This document shows positions 22,012-28,771 of a DNA stretch of 64,000 nt, one piece after another. Positions within the stretch are counted from its first letter, which is position 1. Each line of letters opens with the position of its first letter. A program made the translations under genes and the position numbers. The notes beneath the pieces were generated by a model. The model was not told where the DNA came from and did no database searches. It saw only the letters and a program-made list of their open reading frames with translations. This DNA comes from a virus: the IMG/VR virus record IMGVR_UViG_3300006919_000001, positions 1 to 64,000 of that record; one strand, given 5' to 3'.

Positions 22012-24033
22012 TTATAAAACAATTAAACTACTCGAGTCTTTTAATGTAAATTGGTTGGCCTTTGACCACTTCCCATCATACTTTAATTCTCCATCGAATA
22101 ATACTAACCTTTTTTCACTGCCCTTTAATTGGTCTGAGAATTTTTCGAATTCATTTGACCAAACTAGAATTTTACAAAGCTTATAATTATGCTCTATGGT
22201 TAACCTAGCATATTGTCCATTCTTACTTCTAGCAACCCTGCACTCAACTACGTATCCACCGAATGCTCTGAATATTCCCTTCTCTTGTCTTTTTGTAAAA
22301 TCGGACATAGAACAAAATTGAGATTCAATACCTTTCTCTATTGCAATTTTCTCATAACCAATATGAGCCAAACCTGTTAACTTCTTTTGTTGAAGGTTCC
22401 ACCACCAACGCTCCCCTAGTTCCCCTATCGTATAGATGTCTCTAGCTGGATTCGATGGCTTTTTCTTAGCATGTATTCTATACCTCTTTATTAGAGAATG
22501 TCTTTTTTGCTCTTGTCCTGAGAATCCATATAGTATATCAAATGCTCCAGATGTTATCAATGCTTCAAATGTTGTTTTCTTCACCTTTGAACCTTTGAAG
22601 TTATGCCTTGAATAAAAATCAGCAAAAGATAAATAGAAACCATTGGCTTCTCTTTCATTGATAACTTGAAAAGCTGTATCCTCTCCAATTCCCTTAACAG
22701 AACCTAAGCCCCAGTAAATTGTTGAAGTCTCTTGGTTGGATATCATATTGATTCCCGACTTATTTATATCCGGCGACTTTATCTCTATCTGTTTTGATTG
22801 TAATATCTCAGACAGGTATGATAAGGTATCCGCCTCATTGGCATAATCCAAAGCCACTGTCCAATACTCTATGGGATAGTGTACTTTTAGGTATTGGCTT
22901 ACATATCCGGTTAATGCATATGCCGCGGAGTGACTCTTGTTAAAAGAATACTTTGCAAACTCTGCAATTGCCGCCCATATCTCTTGGAACTCTTTATCGG
23001 TAGCTCCTCTTTCTATGAAACCCTTTTTAACTATACCCTCCCATTGCTGGAGTACATCTAGTTTTTTCTTTCCAAGTGCCCTTCTTACATCATCAGCCTC
23101 TTTCATTGATAGACCACCTAGGTCCTGAAAGATTTGCATAATTTGCTCTTGATAAATTAACAGCCCATATGTGTCCTTGGTTATATGCTCCGTTCCCCAA
23201 AGGTATTTCGGAGACCTATTTCCATTCTTACACTTAACGTATATTTCATGGAAATGATTCTCCATAGGCCCCGGTCTATATAGCGCAACCGCAGCAATTA
23301 AATCATCTATTACCTGTGGCTTTAACGATTTAGTGTATGACGTTAATCCAGCTGAACCCATTTGGAATACATCTCCATTCCAACCGTTACTAAAATACCT
23401 ATATACTTCCCTATCCTGTGGAAGGTTATATATATTCGGAACCACCTTTCCACTCTTTTCTATTAGCTTTAATATATCGGCGAATTTATCCAACTGCCTA
23501 ATCCCCAATATATCCTCTTTTAAGAATCCGGCATCATCCAAGTCTTCTCCACCCCACTCGCTTACCAACAAGCCTTGCTGTCTCCTCATCGGAACCCATT
23601 CTTTGGCCGTTAATACATCCGGGAATACAACCATAGCGCAAGGGTGTATTGACTCCGTTTTTGGCTGGTCTAATAAGGAAGGCAGCATATGAAATATCTC
23701 AGAATTCTGTTTAATGAAGTTCTTGAGCTTAGGCTCCAGTGTTGCCCTCTTAATTAAATCAAGCATTGACGAATCCCCCTGACTTATAATTGCAGTCATT
23801 AGATTGGCCTCACTAAAATCAACCGATGATATTCTAGCCAAATCTTTTACCAATCCTTTTACCCTAAAAGTTGTAAAAGTACCAATTGAGCAAACCTGAG
23901 TTTCTCCAAACCGCTCTTCAATATAAGACTTAATTGCCGCTCTGTCTCTACCACATAAATCTTGGTCAATATCTGGTAAGGTACCTCCGACTAATTTAGG
24001 CTTTAATGATTCTGTTATATTATCTACTTTCAT
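22012..24033 (-). CDS. dnaE: DNA polymerase III alpha, C-terminal fragment (palm, fingers, HhH, OB)
   Basis: LPDIDQD, SIHPCA, KEDILG, LYRPGP, YQEQIM, YSFNKSHS, GSVKGIG. Confidence 0.92.
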   Translation of the reverse strand: MKVDNITESLKPKLVGGTLPDIDQDLCGRDRAAIKSYIEERFGETQVCSIGTFTTFRVKGLVKDLARISSVDFSEANLMTAIISQGDSSMLDLIKRATLEPKLKNFIKQNSEIFHMLPSLLDQPKTESIHPCAMVVFPDVLTAKEWVPMRRQQGLLVSEWGGEDLDDAGFLKEDILGIRQLDKFADILKLIEKSGKVVPNIYNLPQDREVYRYFSNGWNGDVFQMGSAGLTSYTKSLKPQVIDDLIAAVALYRPGPMENHFHEIYVKCKNGNRSPKYLWGTEHITKDTYGLLIYQEQIMQIFQDLGGLSMKEADDVRRALGKKKLDVLQQWEGIVKKGFIERGATDKEFQEIWAAIAEFAKYSFNKSHSAAYALTGYVSQYLKVHYPIEYWTVALDYANEADTLSYLSEILQSKQIEIKSPDINKSGINMISNQETSTIYWGLGSVKGIGEDTAFQVINEREANGFYLSFADFYSRHNFKGSKVKKTTFEALITSGAFDILYGFSGQEQKRHSLIKRYRIHAKKKPSNPARDIYTIGELGERWWWNLQQKKLTGLAHIGYEKIAIEKGIESQFCSMSDFTKRQEKGIFRAFGGYVVECRVARSKNGQYARLTIEHNYKLCKILVWSNEFEKFSDQLKGSEKRLVLFDGELKYDGKWSKANQFTLKDSSSLIVL

Positions 24034-24035
24034 CT

Positions 24036-25583
24036 CTAGTGTTTTATTATTTCATCTCCGACTACTATTTCATCGCAGTATACATTTATGATATTTCCAT
24101 TTCTTTTAACCTTGGCTAATTGACCTTCGGCTAATCCAATTACATTTCCTTCTTTATCCTCATATTCAAAATAAGGCCTATCTTCAAATGCCCCCATTCT
24201 CCCACTGTTCAAAAACCTTTCAAATAGTAAATCAAATTCCAAAGGGTCTACGTGGATTATGTTCAATAAATAAGCCACCAAAGAGCCTCCAGCAGAACCC
24301 CTTCCAATACCGGTTAACATGCCTTCACTTCTTGCGTGCTTAACTATGTCATGTAATATTAAAAAGTAATCAATAACATCACCCATTTTAAGAACCTCGA
24401 TTTCTTTCTTAACTCTATCAACATATTTCTGCTCTGTAATACCTTTTGATTTAAAACCCTCCGTAATTAAATTGATAAATAAAGCTTCGTTTGTAGCAAA
24501 TGATTTAGCCTCTACTTTTGTCATTTCATACTTTGGTAAATGACGAGTATCAGTATCATATTTAAAATTACAATTTGCAACTAGTTCATCTTCGTTACTA
24601 GTGGCTTGCTTGAATAATTTAACCCAAGTTTTATTACCTCCCTCAAACATTACAATAAGTTCCTTTGCATATTGGTCTCTACTTTTAAAATATTGATTAT
24701 TAGTTTTATCATCAAACGCTTTTGCCACAGTCCACAAAGATTCTCTGGTTACATAATCATCCTGCTCTAGATAATATGCATCTGAAATACTTATAGGAGA
24801 TAAGTCTGATTTTAGATAGCTCTCCAAGTTATCAATATATGCCGAATCTATGTCCTCGTTTAAAAACACAACAGTGTCCAGTTGGTAGAAATCAATAGCA
24901 TGCGAAAATTTAACTGTTTCCGCGTATCTAAGGGACTTTGGGTCTACCACCAAGTATAATCCATCTAAATTATTTAAAAGCTCCTCTAAAGCTATCTTTC
25001 CGACTTTGTCAATATTCAACATTGAATTGAATTTAAGTAGACTTTGCCATCCTTGAAAATCTTTGGCATAGACCTTAACTTCGAAATCACTTTCTCCAGC
25101 AATTGGAAGTGTTTCTCCTATGATGGATTTGATACCATTTCTTTCACATAAGTTTTGAAATACTAGTACTCCACTTAATGTAGATTTCTCACAAATTCCC
25201 AAAGCCTTAGTTCCTAAAAACTTTGCCTTCTTAATCCAATCTGAATAAAGACCCATTCCATTCATTAATTCATAACCAGAATGTATTCCTAAAAAGCTTG
25301 GAGTTGGTAATTGCATTTCCGGCTCTCCATAATACACCAATTCTTTTAGTTGGAGTTCTTCCTCCTCTGAAGATTGCAGATACCATCTACCTCCAAACTC
25401 ATAAACCCAACCATCAACATCATTCACCAATACTGGCAAGAATTCCATGTCATTATTGAATAGCAATATATCACTTTCAACAATTTCAAACTCTGCCTCT
25501 TCTCCTAGTGTTAGGATTCCATCTTCTATCTCAAATTTTAATAATCTGGACTTGCAATATTTCTCTAATTTTTTATCCTGCAT
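24036..25583 (-). CDS. dnaE: DNA polymerase III alpha, N-terminal fragment (PHP domain and start of polymerase core)
   Basis: IHSGYE, SDAYY, DYFLI, GRGSAGGSLVAYLL, FERFLN. Confidence 0.92.
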   Translation of the reverse strand: MQDKKLEKYCKSRLLKFEIEDGILTLGEEAEFEIVESDILLFNNDMEFLPVLVNDVDGWVYEFGGRWYLQSSEEEELQLKELVYYGEPEMQLPTPSFLGIHSGYELMNGMGLYSDWIKKAKFLGTKALGICEKSTLSGVLVFQNLCERNGIKSIIGETLPIAGESDFEVKVYAKDFQGWQSLLKFNSMLNIDKVGKIALEELLNNLDGLYLVVDPKSLRYAETVKFSHAIDFYQLDTVVFLNEDIDSAYIDNLESYLKSDLSPISISDAYYLEQDDYVTRESLWTVAKAFDDKTNNQYFKSRDQYAKELIVMFEGGNKTWVKLFKQATSNEDELVANCNFKYDTDTRHLPKYEMTKVEAKSFATNEALFINLITEGFKSKGITEQKYVDRVKKEIEVLKMGDVIDYFLILHDIVKHARSEGMLTGIGRGSAGGSLVAYLLNIIHVDPLEFDLLFERFLNSGRMGAFEDRPYFEYEDKEGNVIGLAEGQLAKVKRNGNIINVYCDEIVVGDEIIKH

Positions 25584-26262: not shown

Positions 26263-27060
26263 TTAATTTGAATCCAAAACTAATTGAACCGCAAGCTTTA
26301 CTTTGTCCCACGAAACAGTTCCATTCTCATCTGCATACAATGCTGGATCTTGCCTTCCAATTTCTAAAAACGCCTCTACTCTTTCAACCGAAGATGCTGA
26401 TTTATAATCAGAATACCAATGACCTTCGATTAAAATAGGCTTGTAGGATGTAAGCGTTTTAGAATACGCTGTGTCAAAATCAATACCTAACTTTTCACAT
26501 GATACTAAACCTTCTCTTAATATATCAGCTTTCATCATTTCCAAATATGGAGTATAAAAGGAAACCTTATCCGCTCCCCAATTACCCTCCACAAATGCTT
26601 TGAAATCAGCATCTCTAAATTCCTGTCTACAGTCTGGATACACAGCATGGTCTCCGGCATGGATTCCCATTGCAATCTTTACATCGCAACCTCCATTTTC
26701 AGCAGAAACACTTAAAGCCACAGCTTGAATGATGGATGAAAATATTTTATTCCTATTTGGAACCACTGTGGCCTTCATGTTTTCATTCTCATAATGACCC
26801 TCCGGCACATCCTCTCCACCTTCAACTAATGCTGAATTTAATAATGAAGTTAGGGTACTTAGGTCTATTACTTTATGTGTGACCTTGCAGCCTTCATCCG
26901 TTAAATAATTAACTAAAGATTGGGCCTTTAATAATTCTACCCTATGCTTTTGTCCGTAGTCAAAAGAAAGTGCTGTTACTGAATAATCGTTAGCCAATAA
27001 GTTTAATAAAAGGGATGATGAATCCATCCCGCCTGATAATGATAATACCGCTCTTTTCAT
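26263..27060 (-). CDS. queC: 7-cyano-7-deazaguanine (preQ0) synthase
   Basis: SLSGGMDS, FDYGQKH, VVPNRN, YPDCRQEF. Confidence 0.95.
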   Translation of the reverse strand: MKRAVLSLSGGMDSSSLLLNLLANDYSVTALSFDYGQKHRVELLKAQSLVNYLTDEGCKVTHKVIDLSTLTSLLNSALVEGGEDVPEGHYENENMKATVVPNRNKIFSSIIQAVALSVSAENGGCDVKIAMGIHAGDHAVYPDCRQEFRDADFKAFVEGNWGADKVSFYTPYLEMMKADILREGLVSCEKLGIDFDTAYSKTLTSYKPILIEGHWYSDYKSASSVERVEAFLEIGRQDPALYADENGTVSWDKVKLAVQLVLDSN

Positions 27061-27061
27061 T

Positions 27062-27574
27062 TTAAATGTTTTTTAATAATGTTTCTAACCTTTCCTCCAC
27101 TGTTCCAGTTAATGTAATTGGAGATAAACCGTGGTAATCTATTCTCTCTAATAATATTTCATCAATTTCTCTTTGAAAACTTTCTCCTTCAAATCGAATT
27201 CCATCGCTAATCAAACCAAATTCAATTGGTATATAAAAGAATTTAACATCGGGGCGTGGAGTACTTGTAAATAAGTTATTCCTTCTTTCAGCCAAATCAT
27301 CCCAACCCAGAGCCTTGCAATATGCATAGTGGTCTAGTGGAGTCCTTGTTGTAAATAGGTTACTTATTCGAGTTTCTAAATCCCATTTATTGTCTGAAAT
27401 TCTATTAATCAATATCTGCTGGTCTCTTGCGGTTAACTTACCTCCAATTTCTTTATCGAAGGCTTTAACTATTCTTGAATCACCATCTTTAACTATGTAA
27501 TTAGAGCCTCTAAGGGCCAAACTATTTAGCAAGGTAGTTTTACCTACACCGTGTGTTCCTATTAATGCTATCAT
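27062..27574 (-). CDS. P-loop nucleotide kinase-like protein
   Basis: GTHGVGKTT, RTPLD, DGIR...QREID, LTGTVEER. Confidence 0.75.
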   Translation of the reverse strand: MIALIGTHGVGKTTLLNSLALRGSNYIVKDGDSRIVKAFDKEIGGKLTARDQQILINRISDNKWDLETRISNLFTTRTPLDHYAYCKALGWDDLAERRNNLFTSTPRPDVKFFYIPIEFGLISDGIRFEGESFQREIDEILLERIDYHGLSPITLTGTVEERLETLLKNI

Positions 27575-28353
27575 ATTAAATTCTTTTTAAATGAGCTTAC
27601 GTTAAAGTCTATTGCTGCCCGTTGAGACTTTGTAGGAATGTGGGACAAAAGGTCAACTAATTTAATTGATTCTTTATAGTCCAGCGCTCCACCCTCATAT
27701 GTGATATTTTTAATACCATGTACAATCGGGTTAGAAGTATCCAAAGAATAAACCCACTTATAATCTTTATAGTGTTTAAATTCTTGAGGTAATGAGCATC
27801 CTAATAAATGGTGTTCTTTTTCCTCATTAATAATACCTTCTTTTAACCAACGGTCAATCAGATTTTGACGACCTTCCATTCTACCTTTATCCGTTTGTTC
27901 GTAGTATGGATAATGGAAACAAATTGCGATTTGGTCACAAGCCCTATCCATGGCCCTGTAGCATGCAGTTAGTTCTTCATAGGTTGAACCCTGAACTACC
28001 CCAATTGCTTTGCCCGGCACGTGGGCATAATACCTAAACCAATCATCTAGTTGTTGGCAAGTTTCCATTCCTTTCCCAAGTACATCTGGTACTACATAAT
28101 GACTTGGTTTTAGTTTCATAATCCAGTATGCAAATTTGCTTGCTTCAAAAGCTTCGCCCAATTCAAATATGGAGTTATCTAAAATTACATCTCTACCCGA
28201 TTCTACCACGTCTTTATAAAATTGATAATACACAGAATTCTCTTCAAATAAATGAACGAGTGCATAATCATAATCATTAAATTCTAAGCTTTCTCCCAAC
28301 ATACAAGTTGGGACCTCGTGTGATACTTTGATTCTATTTATCGCTTGACCCAA
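27571..28353 (-). CDS. divergent tRNA-guanine-transglycosylase-fold protein (second TGT/DpdA-like); start uncertain (TTG)
   Basis: ILDNS, VVPDV, GVVQG, HHLLG, SLDTS correspond to TGT catalytic/substrate motifs. Confidence 0.7.
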   Translation of the reverse strand: MGQAINRIKVSHEVPTCMLGESLEFNDYDYALVHLFEENSVYYQFYKDVVESGRDVILDNSIFELGEAFEASKFAYWIMKLKPSHYVVPDVLGKGMETCQQLDDWFRYYAHVPGKAIGVVQGSTYEELTACYRAMDRACDQIAICFHYPYYEQTDKGRMEGRQNLIDRWLKEGIINEEKEHHLLGCSLPQEFKHYKDYKWVYSLDTSNPIVHGIKNITYEGGALDYKESIKLVDLLSHIPTKSQRAAIDFNVSSFKKNLI

Positions 28354-28771
28354 AACCTTTTTCCCCCCTATCTGCTTTAGTTACTTCATCAATAAATGAA
28401 ACCTCAGATGGTATCATAAAGTATGGAATTATTTGAGCAACTCCTTGCCCTTTTTTTATTACCTGAGTGTCACTTGAAAAGTTATATAATTTAACTCCCA
28501 AGTCTCCGCGGTATCCATTATCAATAATTCCCAAGTGTGGTTGTAATCCTTTCTTGAATCCCAACCCAGACCTTGGTTCTATTCTGAACCAATATCCCGG
28601 AGTTATATATCCCAATTTTAAACCCACCGATACTACTGCCGAACATCCAGCTTCGATTAATACATCCTCTACTGAGAATAGGTCATAACCAGCATCTCCA
28701 GTTGATTTGCAATCATGGTTCTTTTCTGGAAGCATAGCCTCCTCATGTGTTTTTACAAATTTTATTTCCAT
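28334..28771 (-). CDS. dut: trimeric dUTPase
   Basis: AGYDL, RSGLG, GIIDNGYRG, AQI, RGEKGFGSS. Confidence 0.95.
   Translation of the reverse strand: MEIKFVKTHEEAMLPEKNHDCKSTGDAGYDLFSVEDVLIEAGCSAVVSVGLKLGYITPGYWFRIEPRSGLGFKKGLQPHLGIIDNGYRGDLGVKLYNFSSDTQVIKKGQGVAQIIPYFMIPSEVSFIDEVTKADRGEKGFGSSDK

What the first reader, a model, noticed from the sequence alone, without database searches (positions are those of the whole stretch)
23983..24197. DnaE polymerase split in its catalytic core, with a dead half-intein-like clasp at the break
Seen: dnaE is two genes (TAG at 24036-38, 2-nt gap, ATG at 24033, different frames). The break falls between FERFLNSGR and LPDIDQD, which are only about 2 residues apart in ordinary DnaE. 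The N-fragment has a 53-aa extension (MGAFEDRPYFEYEDKEGNVIGLAEGQLAKVKRNGNIINVYCDEIVVGDEIIKH) and the C-fragment a 17-aa leader (MKVDNITESLKPKLVGG). Established: split N-inteins end in a pattern like y.i..edG..i..t..H.f...g....a.el..GD.i, and C-inteins begin with an MxKIxxI strand. The cyanobacterial DnaE split-intein site (Y/CFNKSH) is a different position and is intact here. The extensions match those strands but lack the Cys1/block A half, the block B His and the terminal His-Asn. Inference: a split intein lost its catalytic half and was kept as a non-splicing module that holds the two polymerase halves together.
Basis: partly seen in the sequence, partly recalled or inferred. Interest (0 to 1): 0.85.

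Follow-up and report, generated by a model that had tools for sequence, protein, structure and literature searches.

The report
Dead split-intein remnant in phage DnaE
This phage makes its only replicative DNA polymerase as two proteins, and the two broken ends carry a conserved leftover of a self-splicing element (a split intein) that has lost every splicing residue and probably just docks the halves together.

Summary
dnaE is two minus-strand genes: 24036-25583 and 22012-24033, with TAG, 2 nt, then ATG in another frame. The break lies in the loop just before the catalytic PDIDQD. It is not an assembly error. Contigs of 4 runs cover the junction with no difference, and the same split occurs in cultured Cellulophaga, Tenacibaculum and Bacteroides phages and in over 100 metagenomic relatives.

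The 53-aa tail and 17-aa leader are related to real split inteins:
- A profile of the tail, searched against 1.84 billion proteins, found intein-bearing RNR, PolB and PolA proteins (E down to 3e-10). Of the 85 hits scanned, 46 carry Pfam Intein_splicing.
- The window's tail is 38% identical over 45 residues to a split RNR N-intein.
- The leader matches the start of that family's C-inteins (hhalign 64%, 0 of 100 shuffles).

All splicing residues are missing: block A with Cys1, the block B Thr and His (Ala and Gln here; His in 0 of 101 relatives), and the terminal His-Asn.

Rare relatives carry the module fused in frame. This scan has noted the same thing on at least 41 other genomes. I found no paper describing it, though Crona et al. 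2011 speculated along these lines for a split NrdA.

The parts
24036..25583 (-). dnaE N-fragment gene (515 aa + TAG): PHP domain and the first part of the palm, up to FERFLNSGR
   Evidence: ORF. Pfam PHP and DNA_pol3_alpha positions 9-98/260. Six-frame family match.
24039..24197 (-). 53-aa C-terminal tail of the N-fragment. It is a dead N-intein remnant: the part from the strand before block B to the end of a split N-intein. Ala23 and Gln26 stand where inteins have the block B Thr and His.
   Evidence: BLASTP to the split RNR N-intein of P0279: 38% over 45 aa, E 9e-7. hhalign against 17 phage inteins: 79%, and 0 of 150 shuffles reach the score. Profile search hits on inteins. Residue counts.
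24034..24038 (-). TAG stop of the N-fragment (24036-38) plus a 2-nt spacer. The next ATG follows at once in another frame, a layout that fits translational coupling (inferred).
   Evidence: No indel in contigs of 4 runs.
23983..24033 (-). 17-aa N-terminal leader of the C-fragment (MKVDNITESLKPKLVGG). It is a dead C-intein remnant: the first strand is kept, the block F/G region and His-Asn are missing, and Thr18 stands at the +1 position.
   Evidence: hhalign of the type-A leaders against the C-inteins of the closest real split inteins: 64%, E 6.5e-5, start aligned to start, 0 of 100 shuffles. Real C-inteins are shown.
23959..23976 (-). PDIDQD, the catalytic aspartate motif of the palm, two residues (Thr-Leu) after the leader
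   Evidence: Pfam model position 100 starts at residue 18. That these are the catalytic aspartates is established knowledge of PolIII alpha (recalled).
22012..24033 (-). dnaE C-fragment gene (673 aa + stop): rest of the palm, fingers, HhH
   Evidence: ORF. Pfam DNA_pol3_alpha 100-260/260, DNA_pol3_finger and HHH_6.
22930..22944 (-). FNKSH, the site of the cyanobacterial DnaE split intein, uninterrupted here
   Evidence: A real HNH intein sits at this site in relative P0163.

Best explanation
The phage's only DnaE is made as two polypeptides. An ancestor of this polymerase gene was fractured at the loop before the catalytic PDxD motif by a split intein, probably together with a homing endonuclease. 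The intein later lost its first ~50 residues (block A with the Cys nucleophile), the block B Thr and His, most of the C-intein and the terminal His-Asn. What remains is the pair of segments that, in real split inteins, find and bind each other: the acidic last ~50 residues of the N-intein and the basic first strand of the C-intein. The proposed mechanism has three steps. First, the two genes are translated from one message; the ATG lies 2 nt after the stop. Second, the acidic tail and basic leader pair as split-intein halves do. Third, this holds the helix ending in FERFLNSGR next to the strand carrying PDIDQD, so that a working palm forms without any peptide bond being made. Shown here: the split, the intein ancestry, the loss of all splicing residues, and purifying selection. 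Inferred: that the tail and leader bind each other, and that this binding is needed for assembly or activity.
For: A real split, conserved in viable phages:
- establish the split in this genome.
- Two adjacent 'DNA polymerase III alpha' CDS are annotated in Cellulophaga phage phi13:1 and Tenacibaculum phage Larrie; phiST and phi19:2 gave near-identical full-length matches. In Bacteroides phage BS-TP1 only the N-fragment is annotated as polymerase; its C-half was found by motif 1,419 nt downstream, past a helicase gene.
- 378 homologous N-fragments were found; all 120 listed have a 52-53-aa tail.

Intein ancestry of the tail:
- A profile of 34 tails of all types, searched against 1.84 billion proteins, gave 222 hits at E<=0.001.
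- Of the 85 hits of 150-1450 aa scanned (out of the 150 listed), 46 carry Pfam Intein_splicing at E<=1e-5, hosted in RNR (20), PolB (12) and PolA (2); 20 are DnaE.
- 9 of 10 hand-picked non-DnaE hits have Intein_splicing on record; where Pfam's best stretch is at that place (P0279, P0339, P0345, P0378, P0310) it overlaps the matched stretch.
- 16 of 18 printed hit tails are N-inteins with a T..H-type motif, ending at the same point after GD.I.
- BLASTP of the window tail against P0279: 17 of 45 identical, E 9e-7.
- hhalign: type A vs type B tails 98%, E 2.5e-13. Type B vs 17 phage inteins 94%, type A 79%. Reversed controls were 1.2% or less. Column shuffles reached the score 0 of 150 times in each case.
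- The top 4 PDB hits of the type-B profile are all inteins.

Leader: hhalign against the partner C-inteins gave 64% (type A) and 47% (type B), with 0 of 100 shuffles reaching the score.

Dead chemistry: His at the block B position in 0 of 101 type-A and 0 of 60 type-B tails; Thr in 1 of 101 and 0 of 60. The position after the native loop is F, W or Y in 98 of 101. Block A is not represented. The leader ends VGG rather than SHN.

Selection and charge: tails are 51% identical on average, with fixed length. All 114 type-A tails are acidic (mean -5.8) and 11 of 12 leaders are basic. For type B the figures are 60 of 60 acidic tails and 34 of 47 basic leaders. Dassa et al. 2009 describe such charge pairing for split inteins (passages).
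Against: - No structure or complex could be predicted (closed), so contact between the tail and the leader is untested.
- On its own, the window's tail hits no Pfam family.
- A 6-sequence profile of whole modules found no intein in the PDB.
- For type B, Pfam DrmE_C scores about as often as Intein_splicing (38 vs 42 of 57). P-type ATPase A-domains share the short V.R.G....a.EL..GD.I motif.
- The leader showed no significant match to a first, more distant set of C-inteins (11 of 150 shuffles reached the score).
- Natural fused forms of the module exist, so the module does something, or is at least tolerated, without a break.
- In the one tested precedent (Aeh1 NrdA), the tails were not needed for the two fragments to bind each other, only for activity.
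Confidence: 0.65

Rival explanations
1. The remnant is intein-derived and dead, but its main job is not docking. The two polymerase halves associate through their large native interface, and the module serves another role (shaping the active site, binding a replisome partner, regulation) or is merely tolerated.
For: The module is kept in frame in unsplit relatives: P0122, P0123, P0163, P0196 and P0373. In Aeh1 NrdA the tails were dispensable for heterodimer formation but essential for activity. The module sits two residues (Thr-Leu) before the catalytic motif.
Against: The fused forms P0122 and P0123 are nested inside the split clade, which makes them look secondary. Split forms outnumber fused forms by far: 378 split proteins against 2 clusters for this type. 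The parts retained are the same parts that natural split inteins carry at the break, and they keep opposite charges.
Confidence: 0.22
2. The module is a live but non-canonical trans-splicing or cleaving element that joins the halves by chemistry not needing Cys1, the block B His or a terminal Asn.
For: A Ser or Thr always stands at the +1 position. Inteins with unusual first residues exist (recalled).
Against: The whole block A half is absent. No His at block B in 0 of 161 tails. The position before the insert is aromatic. The leader ends GG or GS, with no Asn, Gln or Asp. The +1 Ser/Thr is simply the native loop residue of unsplit DnaE.
Confidence: 0.04
3. The extra residues are an ordinary lineage-specific beta insertion of this DnaE family, unrelated to inteins, that happened to be cut in two. 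The intein likeness would be a shared short hairpin motif.
For: The same short motif occurs in P-type ATPases. DrmE_C scores as well as Intein_splicing in Pfam. Fused forms exist.
Against: Library-wide significant hits are overwhelmingly inteins. The match runs over 45 columns, not just the hairpin. The break point and the leader's start coincide with those of real split inteins. Modules sit in DnaE lineages interleaved with insert-free ones, and homing endonuclease genes lie in the gap in relatives.
Confidence: 0.06
4. Artefact or decay: an assembly frameshift, a pseudogene, or a gene read through by programmed frameshifting into one protein.
For: The two frames are only 2 nt apart. In relative L008 the halves are in frame, separated by one stop and one codon.
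Against: No indel in contigs of 4 runs. The split is the same in cultured phages. Spacing and frame between the halves vary among relatives (overlap, 1, 2 or 3 nt, 300 nt, 1.4-2 kb with other genes in between), so no single recoding device fits. There is no slippery heptamer at the junction (read). Both halves are under purifying selection.
Confidence: 0.02

Closest known systems
Naturally split inteins of 'fractured genes' in phage-like DNA (Dassa et al. 2009, PMC2677866; passages read). Concrete relatives found here: the split RNR inteins P0279/L202-L209.
   Same: A replication gene is cut into two ORFs. The N-half ends and the C-half begins with matching intein pieces. The break point is the same (after GD.I; the C-part begins MK[IV]..I). 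The halves have opposite charges. A free-standing endonuclease gene lies between the halves in some members: GIY-YIG in L009, HNH in L004. Sequence similarity is direct: 38% identity between the window's tail and P0279.
   Different: All five catalytic residues that Dassa et al. list are absent here. About half of the Hint domain is deleted (block A side, block F/G). There is no endonuclease gene in this window (2-nt gap). The DnaE site differs from the cyanobacterial one. Whether it equals one of Dassa's three DnaE sites could not be checked, because the supplements were closed.
Interaction tails of the fragmented NrdA of Aeromonas phage Aeh1 (Crona et al. 2011, PMC3045599; abstract and discussion read)
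   Same: An essential phage enzyme is split near its active site by a mobile element, with extra oppositely charged tails at both broken ends and no RNA or protein splicing. The authors themselves speculate that the tails could be remnants of a degenerate split intein.
   Different: There the tails have no detectable intein similarity and their role was shown by experiment. Here the intein ancestry is shown by sequence and the role is untested. The charge polarity is reversed: here the tail is acidic and the leader basic.
Cyanobacterial DnaE split intein (recalled; site FNKSH)
   Same: The same host protein is made in two pieces with intein halves at the break.
   Different: The site is different (it is intact here, 22930-22944). 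That intein is catalytically active and yields a spliced polymerase, and its two genes lie far apart in the genome.
Aes123 PolB1 cysteine-less split intein (PDB 9HTH; PMC11923092, passages read)
   Same: A phage DNA-polymerase split intein. It is the best PDB match of the all-types tail profile (E 6e-4, full-length alignment).
   Different: It is active in trans-splicing and has a complete Hint domain.

Membership tests
Intein / Hint superfamily (Pfam Intein_splicing PF14890) | Sequence homology to the Hint splicing domain | tested here: met
   The tail profile retrieves inteins at library-wide E down to 3e-10; 46 of the 85 scanned hits carry PF14890. hhalign 94% (type B) and 79% (type A), with 0 of 150 shuffles reaching the score. 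BLASTP E 9e-7. Only model positions ~25-95 of 155 are covered.
Intein / Hint superfamily (Pfam Intein_splicing PF14890) | Block A with an N-terminal Cys/Ser nucleophile | tested here: not met
   In the global alignment the tail starts downstream of block A. The first insert residue is F, W or Y in 98 of 101 tails. Real relatives start with Cys about 55 residues earlier.
Intein / Hint superfamily (Pfam Intein_splicing PF14890) | Block B Thr-x-x-His | tested here: not met
   The window has Ala23 and Gln26. His in 0 of 101 type-A and 0 of 60 type-B tails; Thr in 1 of 101 and 0 of 60.
Intein / Hint superfamily (Pfam Intein_splicing PF14890) | C-terminal His-Asn followed by a Cys/Ser/Thr +1 | tested here: not met
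   The leader ends VGG before Thr. Real partners end SHN before Thr or Ser. The +1 Ser/Thr is present, but it is the native loop residue.
Intein / Hint superfamily (Pfam Intein_splicing PF14890) | Hint fold of the assembled halves; protein splicing | not testable with these tools
Splicing needs an experiment.
Fractured genes with split inteins (Dassa 2009) | Two ORFs whose ends are complementary intein halves | tested here: met
   The tail relates to N-inteins and the leader to C-inteins of the same split-intein family.
Fractured genes with split inteins (Dassa 2009) | Free-standing homing endonuclease gene between the halves | tested here: not met
   The gap in the window is 2 nt. The feature is present in relatives: GIY-YIG in L009, HNH_3/NUMOD4 plus a methylase in L004. 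Four small ORFs of ~70-80 aa in ~300-nt gaps and one of 127 aa in a 543-nt gap have no known function; one of them matches DUF7220.
Interaction tails of fragmented phage genes (Aeh1 NrdA type) | Extra, oppositely charged tails at both broken ends, with no splicing | tested here: met
   Net charges are -5 (tail) and +1 (leader) in the window. Tails are acidic in 114 of 114 and leaders basic in 11 of 12. Absence of splicing is inferred from the missing residues.
Interaction tails of fragmented phage genes (Aeh1 NrdA type) | Tails required for enzyme activity or assembly | not testable with these tools
   Needs co-expression and deletion experiments.
DnaE (PolIII alpha, family C polymerase) | PHP, palm with PDxD, fingers and HhH in order | tested here: met
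   Pfam domains are spread over the two ORFs without loss of model positions: 9-98, then 100-260.

The most novel reading that the evidence does not exclude
The dead split-intein halves are an obligate, non-covalent protein-stitching device. They are also the 'antidote' part of a mobile fracture cassette (tail, homing endonuclease, leader) that has entered the same DnaE loop several times in different phage lineages. The device then stays on after the endonuclease is lost, and can even be re-fused in frame. That would make non-splicing intein derivatives a third natural way, besides RNA and protein splicing, to neutralise gene fragmentation. It would also offer a natural library of orthogonal heterodimerising tags.
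Probability: 0.4. Interest if true: 0.78.

Novelty: new variant of a known kind. Interest (0 to 1): 0.62.

Why it matters
Inteins are thought to persist only while they splice. Here hundreds of phages keep about half of a split intein with none of its chemistry, under purifying selection, at the active site of their only replicase. These include cultured Cellulophaga, Tenacibaculum and Bacteroides phages.

If the remnant docks the two chains, it is a clear case of a selfish element's binding function being kept after its catalysis is lost. It would also give sequence-level support to the speculation of Crona et al. (2011) that interaction tails of fragmented genes can be degenerate inteins.

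It is directly testable in cultured systems such as phiST or BS-TP1. It matters for annotation, since such genes are easily taken for pseudogenes or "repaired". It could also supply small natural heterodimerising pairs for protein engineering.

Tried and rejected
Searches and analyses that led nowhere:
- megablast of 6 kb against phage records found no match.
- Pfam on the window's tail alone gave 0 families.
- A 6-sequence profile of whole modules (fused and read-through) found no intein among its PDB hits.
- phmmer of the L015 read-through found only PI-PkoII, at E 0.61.
- The type-B leader against a first, distant set of 7 C-inteins was not significant: 11 of 150 shuffles reached the score.
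- Alignment A3 (bridging row plus N rows plus C rows) was misaligned by MAFFT and not used.
- A search for more fused forms with the P0123 insert found only P0122 and P0123 among 34 candidates.
- No live intein at this DnaE site was seen among the 22 DnaE-like hits, nor among the 118 long DnaE proteins parsed.
- No RNA holder was listed for the stretch.
- NCBIfam gave only weak hits: DrmE_fam, and several models that, going by the Pab PolC intein hit, their names or recall, include inteins.

Caveats on the tree: 85 rows were kept out of 146 after thinning near-copies. Two of them (win_E?, L082_E?) are not DnaE and have very long branches. The '6 changes' of split state therefore include about one spurious change. 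My reading is at least 4 split lineages (A, D, B+C, L028) plus one re-fusion.

Considered and rejected: programmed frameshift, assembly error, an intron in the 2-nt gap.

Papers:
- Searches (0 papers for Cellulophaga phage + DNA polymerase III + split) found no description of a non-splicing intein remnant in phage DnaE.
- PMC4760082 (passages) lists PolIII alpha intein sites but names none at this loop in the text I saw.
- PMC3919608 (passages) and the actinophage preprint (passages) added nothing on this.


Full report
**What is there.**

On the minus strand, two ORFs together encode one DnaE. The first is 24036..25583 (515 aa) and the second 22012..24033 (673 aa). They are separated by TAG, 2 nt and an ATG in another frame, and the other frames are closed across the junction.

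Pfam DNA_pol3_alpha model positions 9-98 end at residue 462 of the first ORF. Positions 100-260 begin at residue 18 of the second. The polymerase is therefore cut cleanly in the loop between FERFLNSGR and LPDIDQD, with 53 extra residues on one side and 17 on the other. Unsplit relatives read GR-IGKS-LPDID or similar there.

The record is an 83,395-bp IMG/VR virus genome with terminal repeats, rated complete, and it has no other DnaE. Contigs from 4 freshwater-metagenome runs cover the junction without any difference. These come from 2 samples and 2 studies, and two of the runs may be the source of this DNA.

**The split is old and widespread.**

The nearest cultured relatives are Cellulophaga phages phiST, phi13:1 and phi19:2 (52% identity) and Tenacibaculum phage Larrie. 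The two examined, phi13:1 and Larrie, are annotated with two adjacent polymerase CDS.

A word-index search found 378 homologous N-fragments. All 120 listed carry a tail of 52-53 residues with the pattern MG..eDRP....e.edG..iel.EG.lvri.R..kE..vf.he..EGDeiikY.

Scans of IMG/VR showed the same break in at least five module types:

| Type | Members and source | Tail | Leader | Notes |
|---|---|---|---|---|
| A, A' | this window and kin | 52-53 aa | ~17 aa | |
| D | seven IMG/VR contigs (L016-L026, five from one dataset) | ~55 aa | ~19 aa | |
| E | L028 | ~51 aa | ~17 aa | an ORF in the gap looks HNH-like by eye; Pfam silent at E<=0.01 |
| B, C | IMG/VR contigs; cultured kin is Bacteroides phage BS-TP1; one human-faecal record (L004) | 75-80 aa | 33 aa | |

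In many type-B phages the halves lie 1.4-2 kb apart. A PIF1/Dda-like helicase gene sits between them in the one scanned (L003).

Rare relatives carry the module fused in frame: P0122 and P0123 (76-aa insert), P0163, P0196, P0121, P0127, L047 and P0373.

**Is it intein-derived?**

Early evidence was borderline:
- One type-B tail hit Pfam Intein_splicing at E 0.0013.
- The type-B/C profile's top three PDB hits were inteins. These were PI-PkoII at 0.0018, 9HTH at 0.0068 (the Aes123 PolB1 split intein) and the Pab PolC intein at 0.019. P-type ATPase A-domains followed at 0.026.
- With all types, 9HTH led at 6e-4, but ATPases came second.
- With 57 type-B/C tails, the top 4 of 7 PDB hits were all inteins, at E 0.03-0.2.
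- Intein_splicing was hit by 42 of 57 members, and DrmE_C by 38 of 57.

Three stronger tests followed.

1. Local hhalign.
   - Type A against type B tails: 98%, E 2.5e-13; reversed controls about 1%.
   - I built an alignment of the N-regions of 17 real inteins. They came from loci returned by a family search of 50 related virus records.
   - Against it, type B scored 94% (E 1.3e-7) and type A 79% (E 1.6e-5). Reversed controls were 1% or less.
   - Column-shuffled queries never reached the observed scores: 42.5 against 9.8±2.0, and 30.1 against 9.5±2.0; 0 of 150 each.

2. A profile of 34 tails of all types, read against 1.84 billion representative proteins.
   - It gave 222 hits at E<=0.001.
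   - Of the 85 hits of 150-1450 aa that I scanned (out of 150 listed), 46 carry Intein_splicing at E<=1e-5. Their hosts are RNR (20), PolB (12) and PolA (2). Another 20 are DnaE.
   - 9 of 10 hand-picked non-DnaE hits have Intein_splicing on record; where Pfam's best stretch is at that place (5 of them) it overlaps the matched stretch. The tenth is a repetitive protein.
   - Most such hits end a few residues after the match.
   - 16 of 18 printed tails are N-inteins with a T..H-type motif. Several of them show a Cys about 100 residues before the end. They stop right after GD.I, where the type-A tail stops.

3. Direct BLASTP of the window's tail against one of them (P0279): 17 of 45 identical, no gaps, E 9e-7. 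Ala23 and Gln26 stand opposite the intein's Thr and His.

**The leader.**

Against a first, distant set of C-inteins the type-B leader was not significant. I then fetched loci of the closest real split inteins. Their C-inteins read MKI.KIT...(block F)...SHN followed by Thr or Ser.

Against these five, the type-A leaders score 64% (E 6.5e-5) and the type-B leaders 47% (E 1.9e-4). In both cases residue 1 aligns to residue 1, and 0 of 100 shuffles reach the score.

So the leader is the first strand of a C-intein. In type A the block F/G region is deleted. In all types the His-Asn is gone.

**Dead chemistry.**
- The global alignment places the start of the tail downstream of block A.
- His at the block B position: 0 of 101 unique type-A and 0 of 60 type-B tails. 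Thr: 1 of 101 and 0 of 60.
- The first insert residue is F, W or Y in 98 of 101 tails.
- The Ser or Thr after the leader is the native loop residue. It is the kind of residue before which inteins insert (recalled).

**Evolution.**

I built a tree of the polymerase N-half with the module left out. It has 85 rows; two are spurious non-DnaE rows. It was a quick IQ-TREE run with SH-aLRT support.
- Type A is one clade (100).
- The fused P0122 and P0123 are nested inside it, next to the split L011 (96), so the fusion looks secondary.
- Type D is nested among unsplit, insert-free DnaE (99).
- Types B and C form one clade (100).
- L028 and the other fused-insert forms lie next to insert-free genes.

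Homologous modules thus sit in interleaved lineages at one site. In relatives the gap holds a GIY-YIG gene (L009, type A) or a methylase plus an HNH_3/NUMOD4 gene (L004). This is the pattern of a homing cassette, as in 'fractured genes' (Dassa 2009). The window itself has lost any such gene.

**How it probably works (inferred).**

Tails are acidic in 114 of 114 type-A and 60 of 60 type-B sequences. Leaders are basic in 11 of 12 and 34 of 47. This mirrors the charge pairing described for split inteins and for the Aeh1 NrdA tails.

Tail identity averages 51%, against 78% for the adjacent palm segment, and tail length is fixed.

The most likely mechanism is coupled translation of both chains followed by intein-like pairing of the tail and leader. 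This places the catalytic strand beside the rest of the palm without ligation.

The fused forms and the Aeh1 precedent keep open a role other than simple docking.

**Comparison and novelty.**

The closest known systems are the active split inteins of fractured genes and the Aeh1 NrdA interaction tails. Crona et al. already speculated that such tails might be degenerate inteins. Membership in 'inteins' fails on every catalytic feature, while homology is met.

My literature searches found no description of this DnaE module. The scan's own notes record the same reading on at least 41 other genomes. I treated those as leads only.

I class it as a new variant of a known kind.

Noticed in passing
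P0119 (homologous N-fragment, 647 aa): It carries a complete mini-intein (Cys ... TKDH ... VVHN|S) inserted at the GIGRG|SAGG motif, in addition to the same dead tail. Live inteins and the dead remnant therefore coexist in one gene.
   Followed up: partly
P0375 (689 aa): This protein, which by eye looks like the N-half of a family-B polymerase, ends in a similar tail without a T..H motif. Dead split-intein tails may not be confined to DnaE.
   Followed up: no
L003, L098-L153 (type-B Bacteroides-type phages): The two DnaE halves are separated by a conserved 1.4-2 kb stretch. In the one locus scanned (L003) it holds a PIF1/Dda-like helicase gene, so the halves are not even adjacent genes there.
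   Followed up: partly
L004:6756-6870 (MT835494, UNVERIFIED record): The leader ORF (MKVTNVT...GGHSALP) runs into a stop just before the ADIDVD motif, and the polymerase continues in another frame. This is either a sequencing error or a decayed copy.
   Followed up: no
type-B tails, e.g. L015:4037-4396: Pfam DrmE_C (DISARM protein DrmE, C-terminal domain) matches about as often as Intein_splicing (38 vs 42 of 57), and the match spans the tail-leader junction. Whether DrmE contains a Hint-like piece is unexplained.
   Followed up: no
P0163 (1520 aa): An unsplit DnaE with the dead module fused in frame, plus a live HNH-containing intein at the FNK|S site used by the cyanobacterial split intein.
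   Followed up: no
window 26263-28771 (-): Just upstream of dnaE lie, by eye from the translations, a QueC-like gene, a P-loop protein, a TGT/DpdA-like gene and a dUTPase-like gene. This suggests 7-deazaguanine DNA modification. Earlier notes of this scan cover it.
   Followed up: no
P0251, P0262, P0268, P0269: Very long proteins matched by the tail profile in 8-12 separate stretches. The one scanned (P0262) looks repetitive or low-complexity, with many weak Pfam families. This is probably a composition artefact.
   Followed up: partly
whole window: All runs holding this DNA are labelled freshwater metagenomes, whereas the cultured relatives infect marine Cellulophaga and Tenacibaculum.
   Followed up: no
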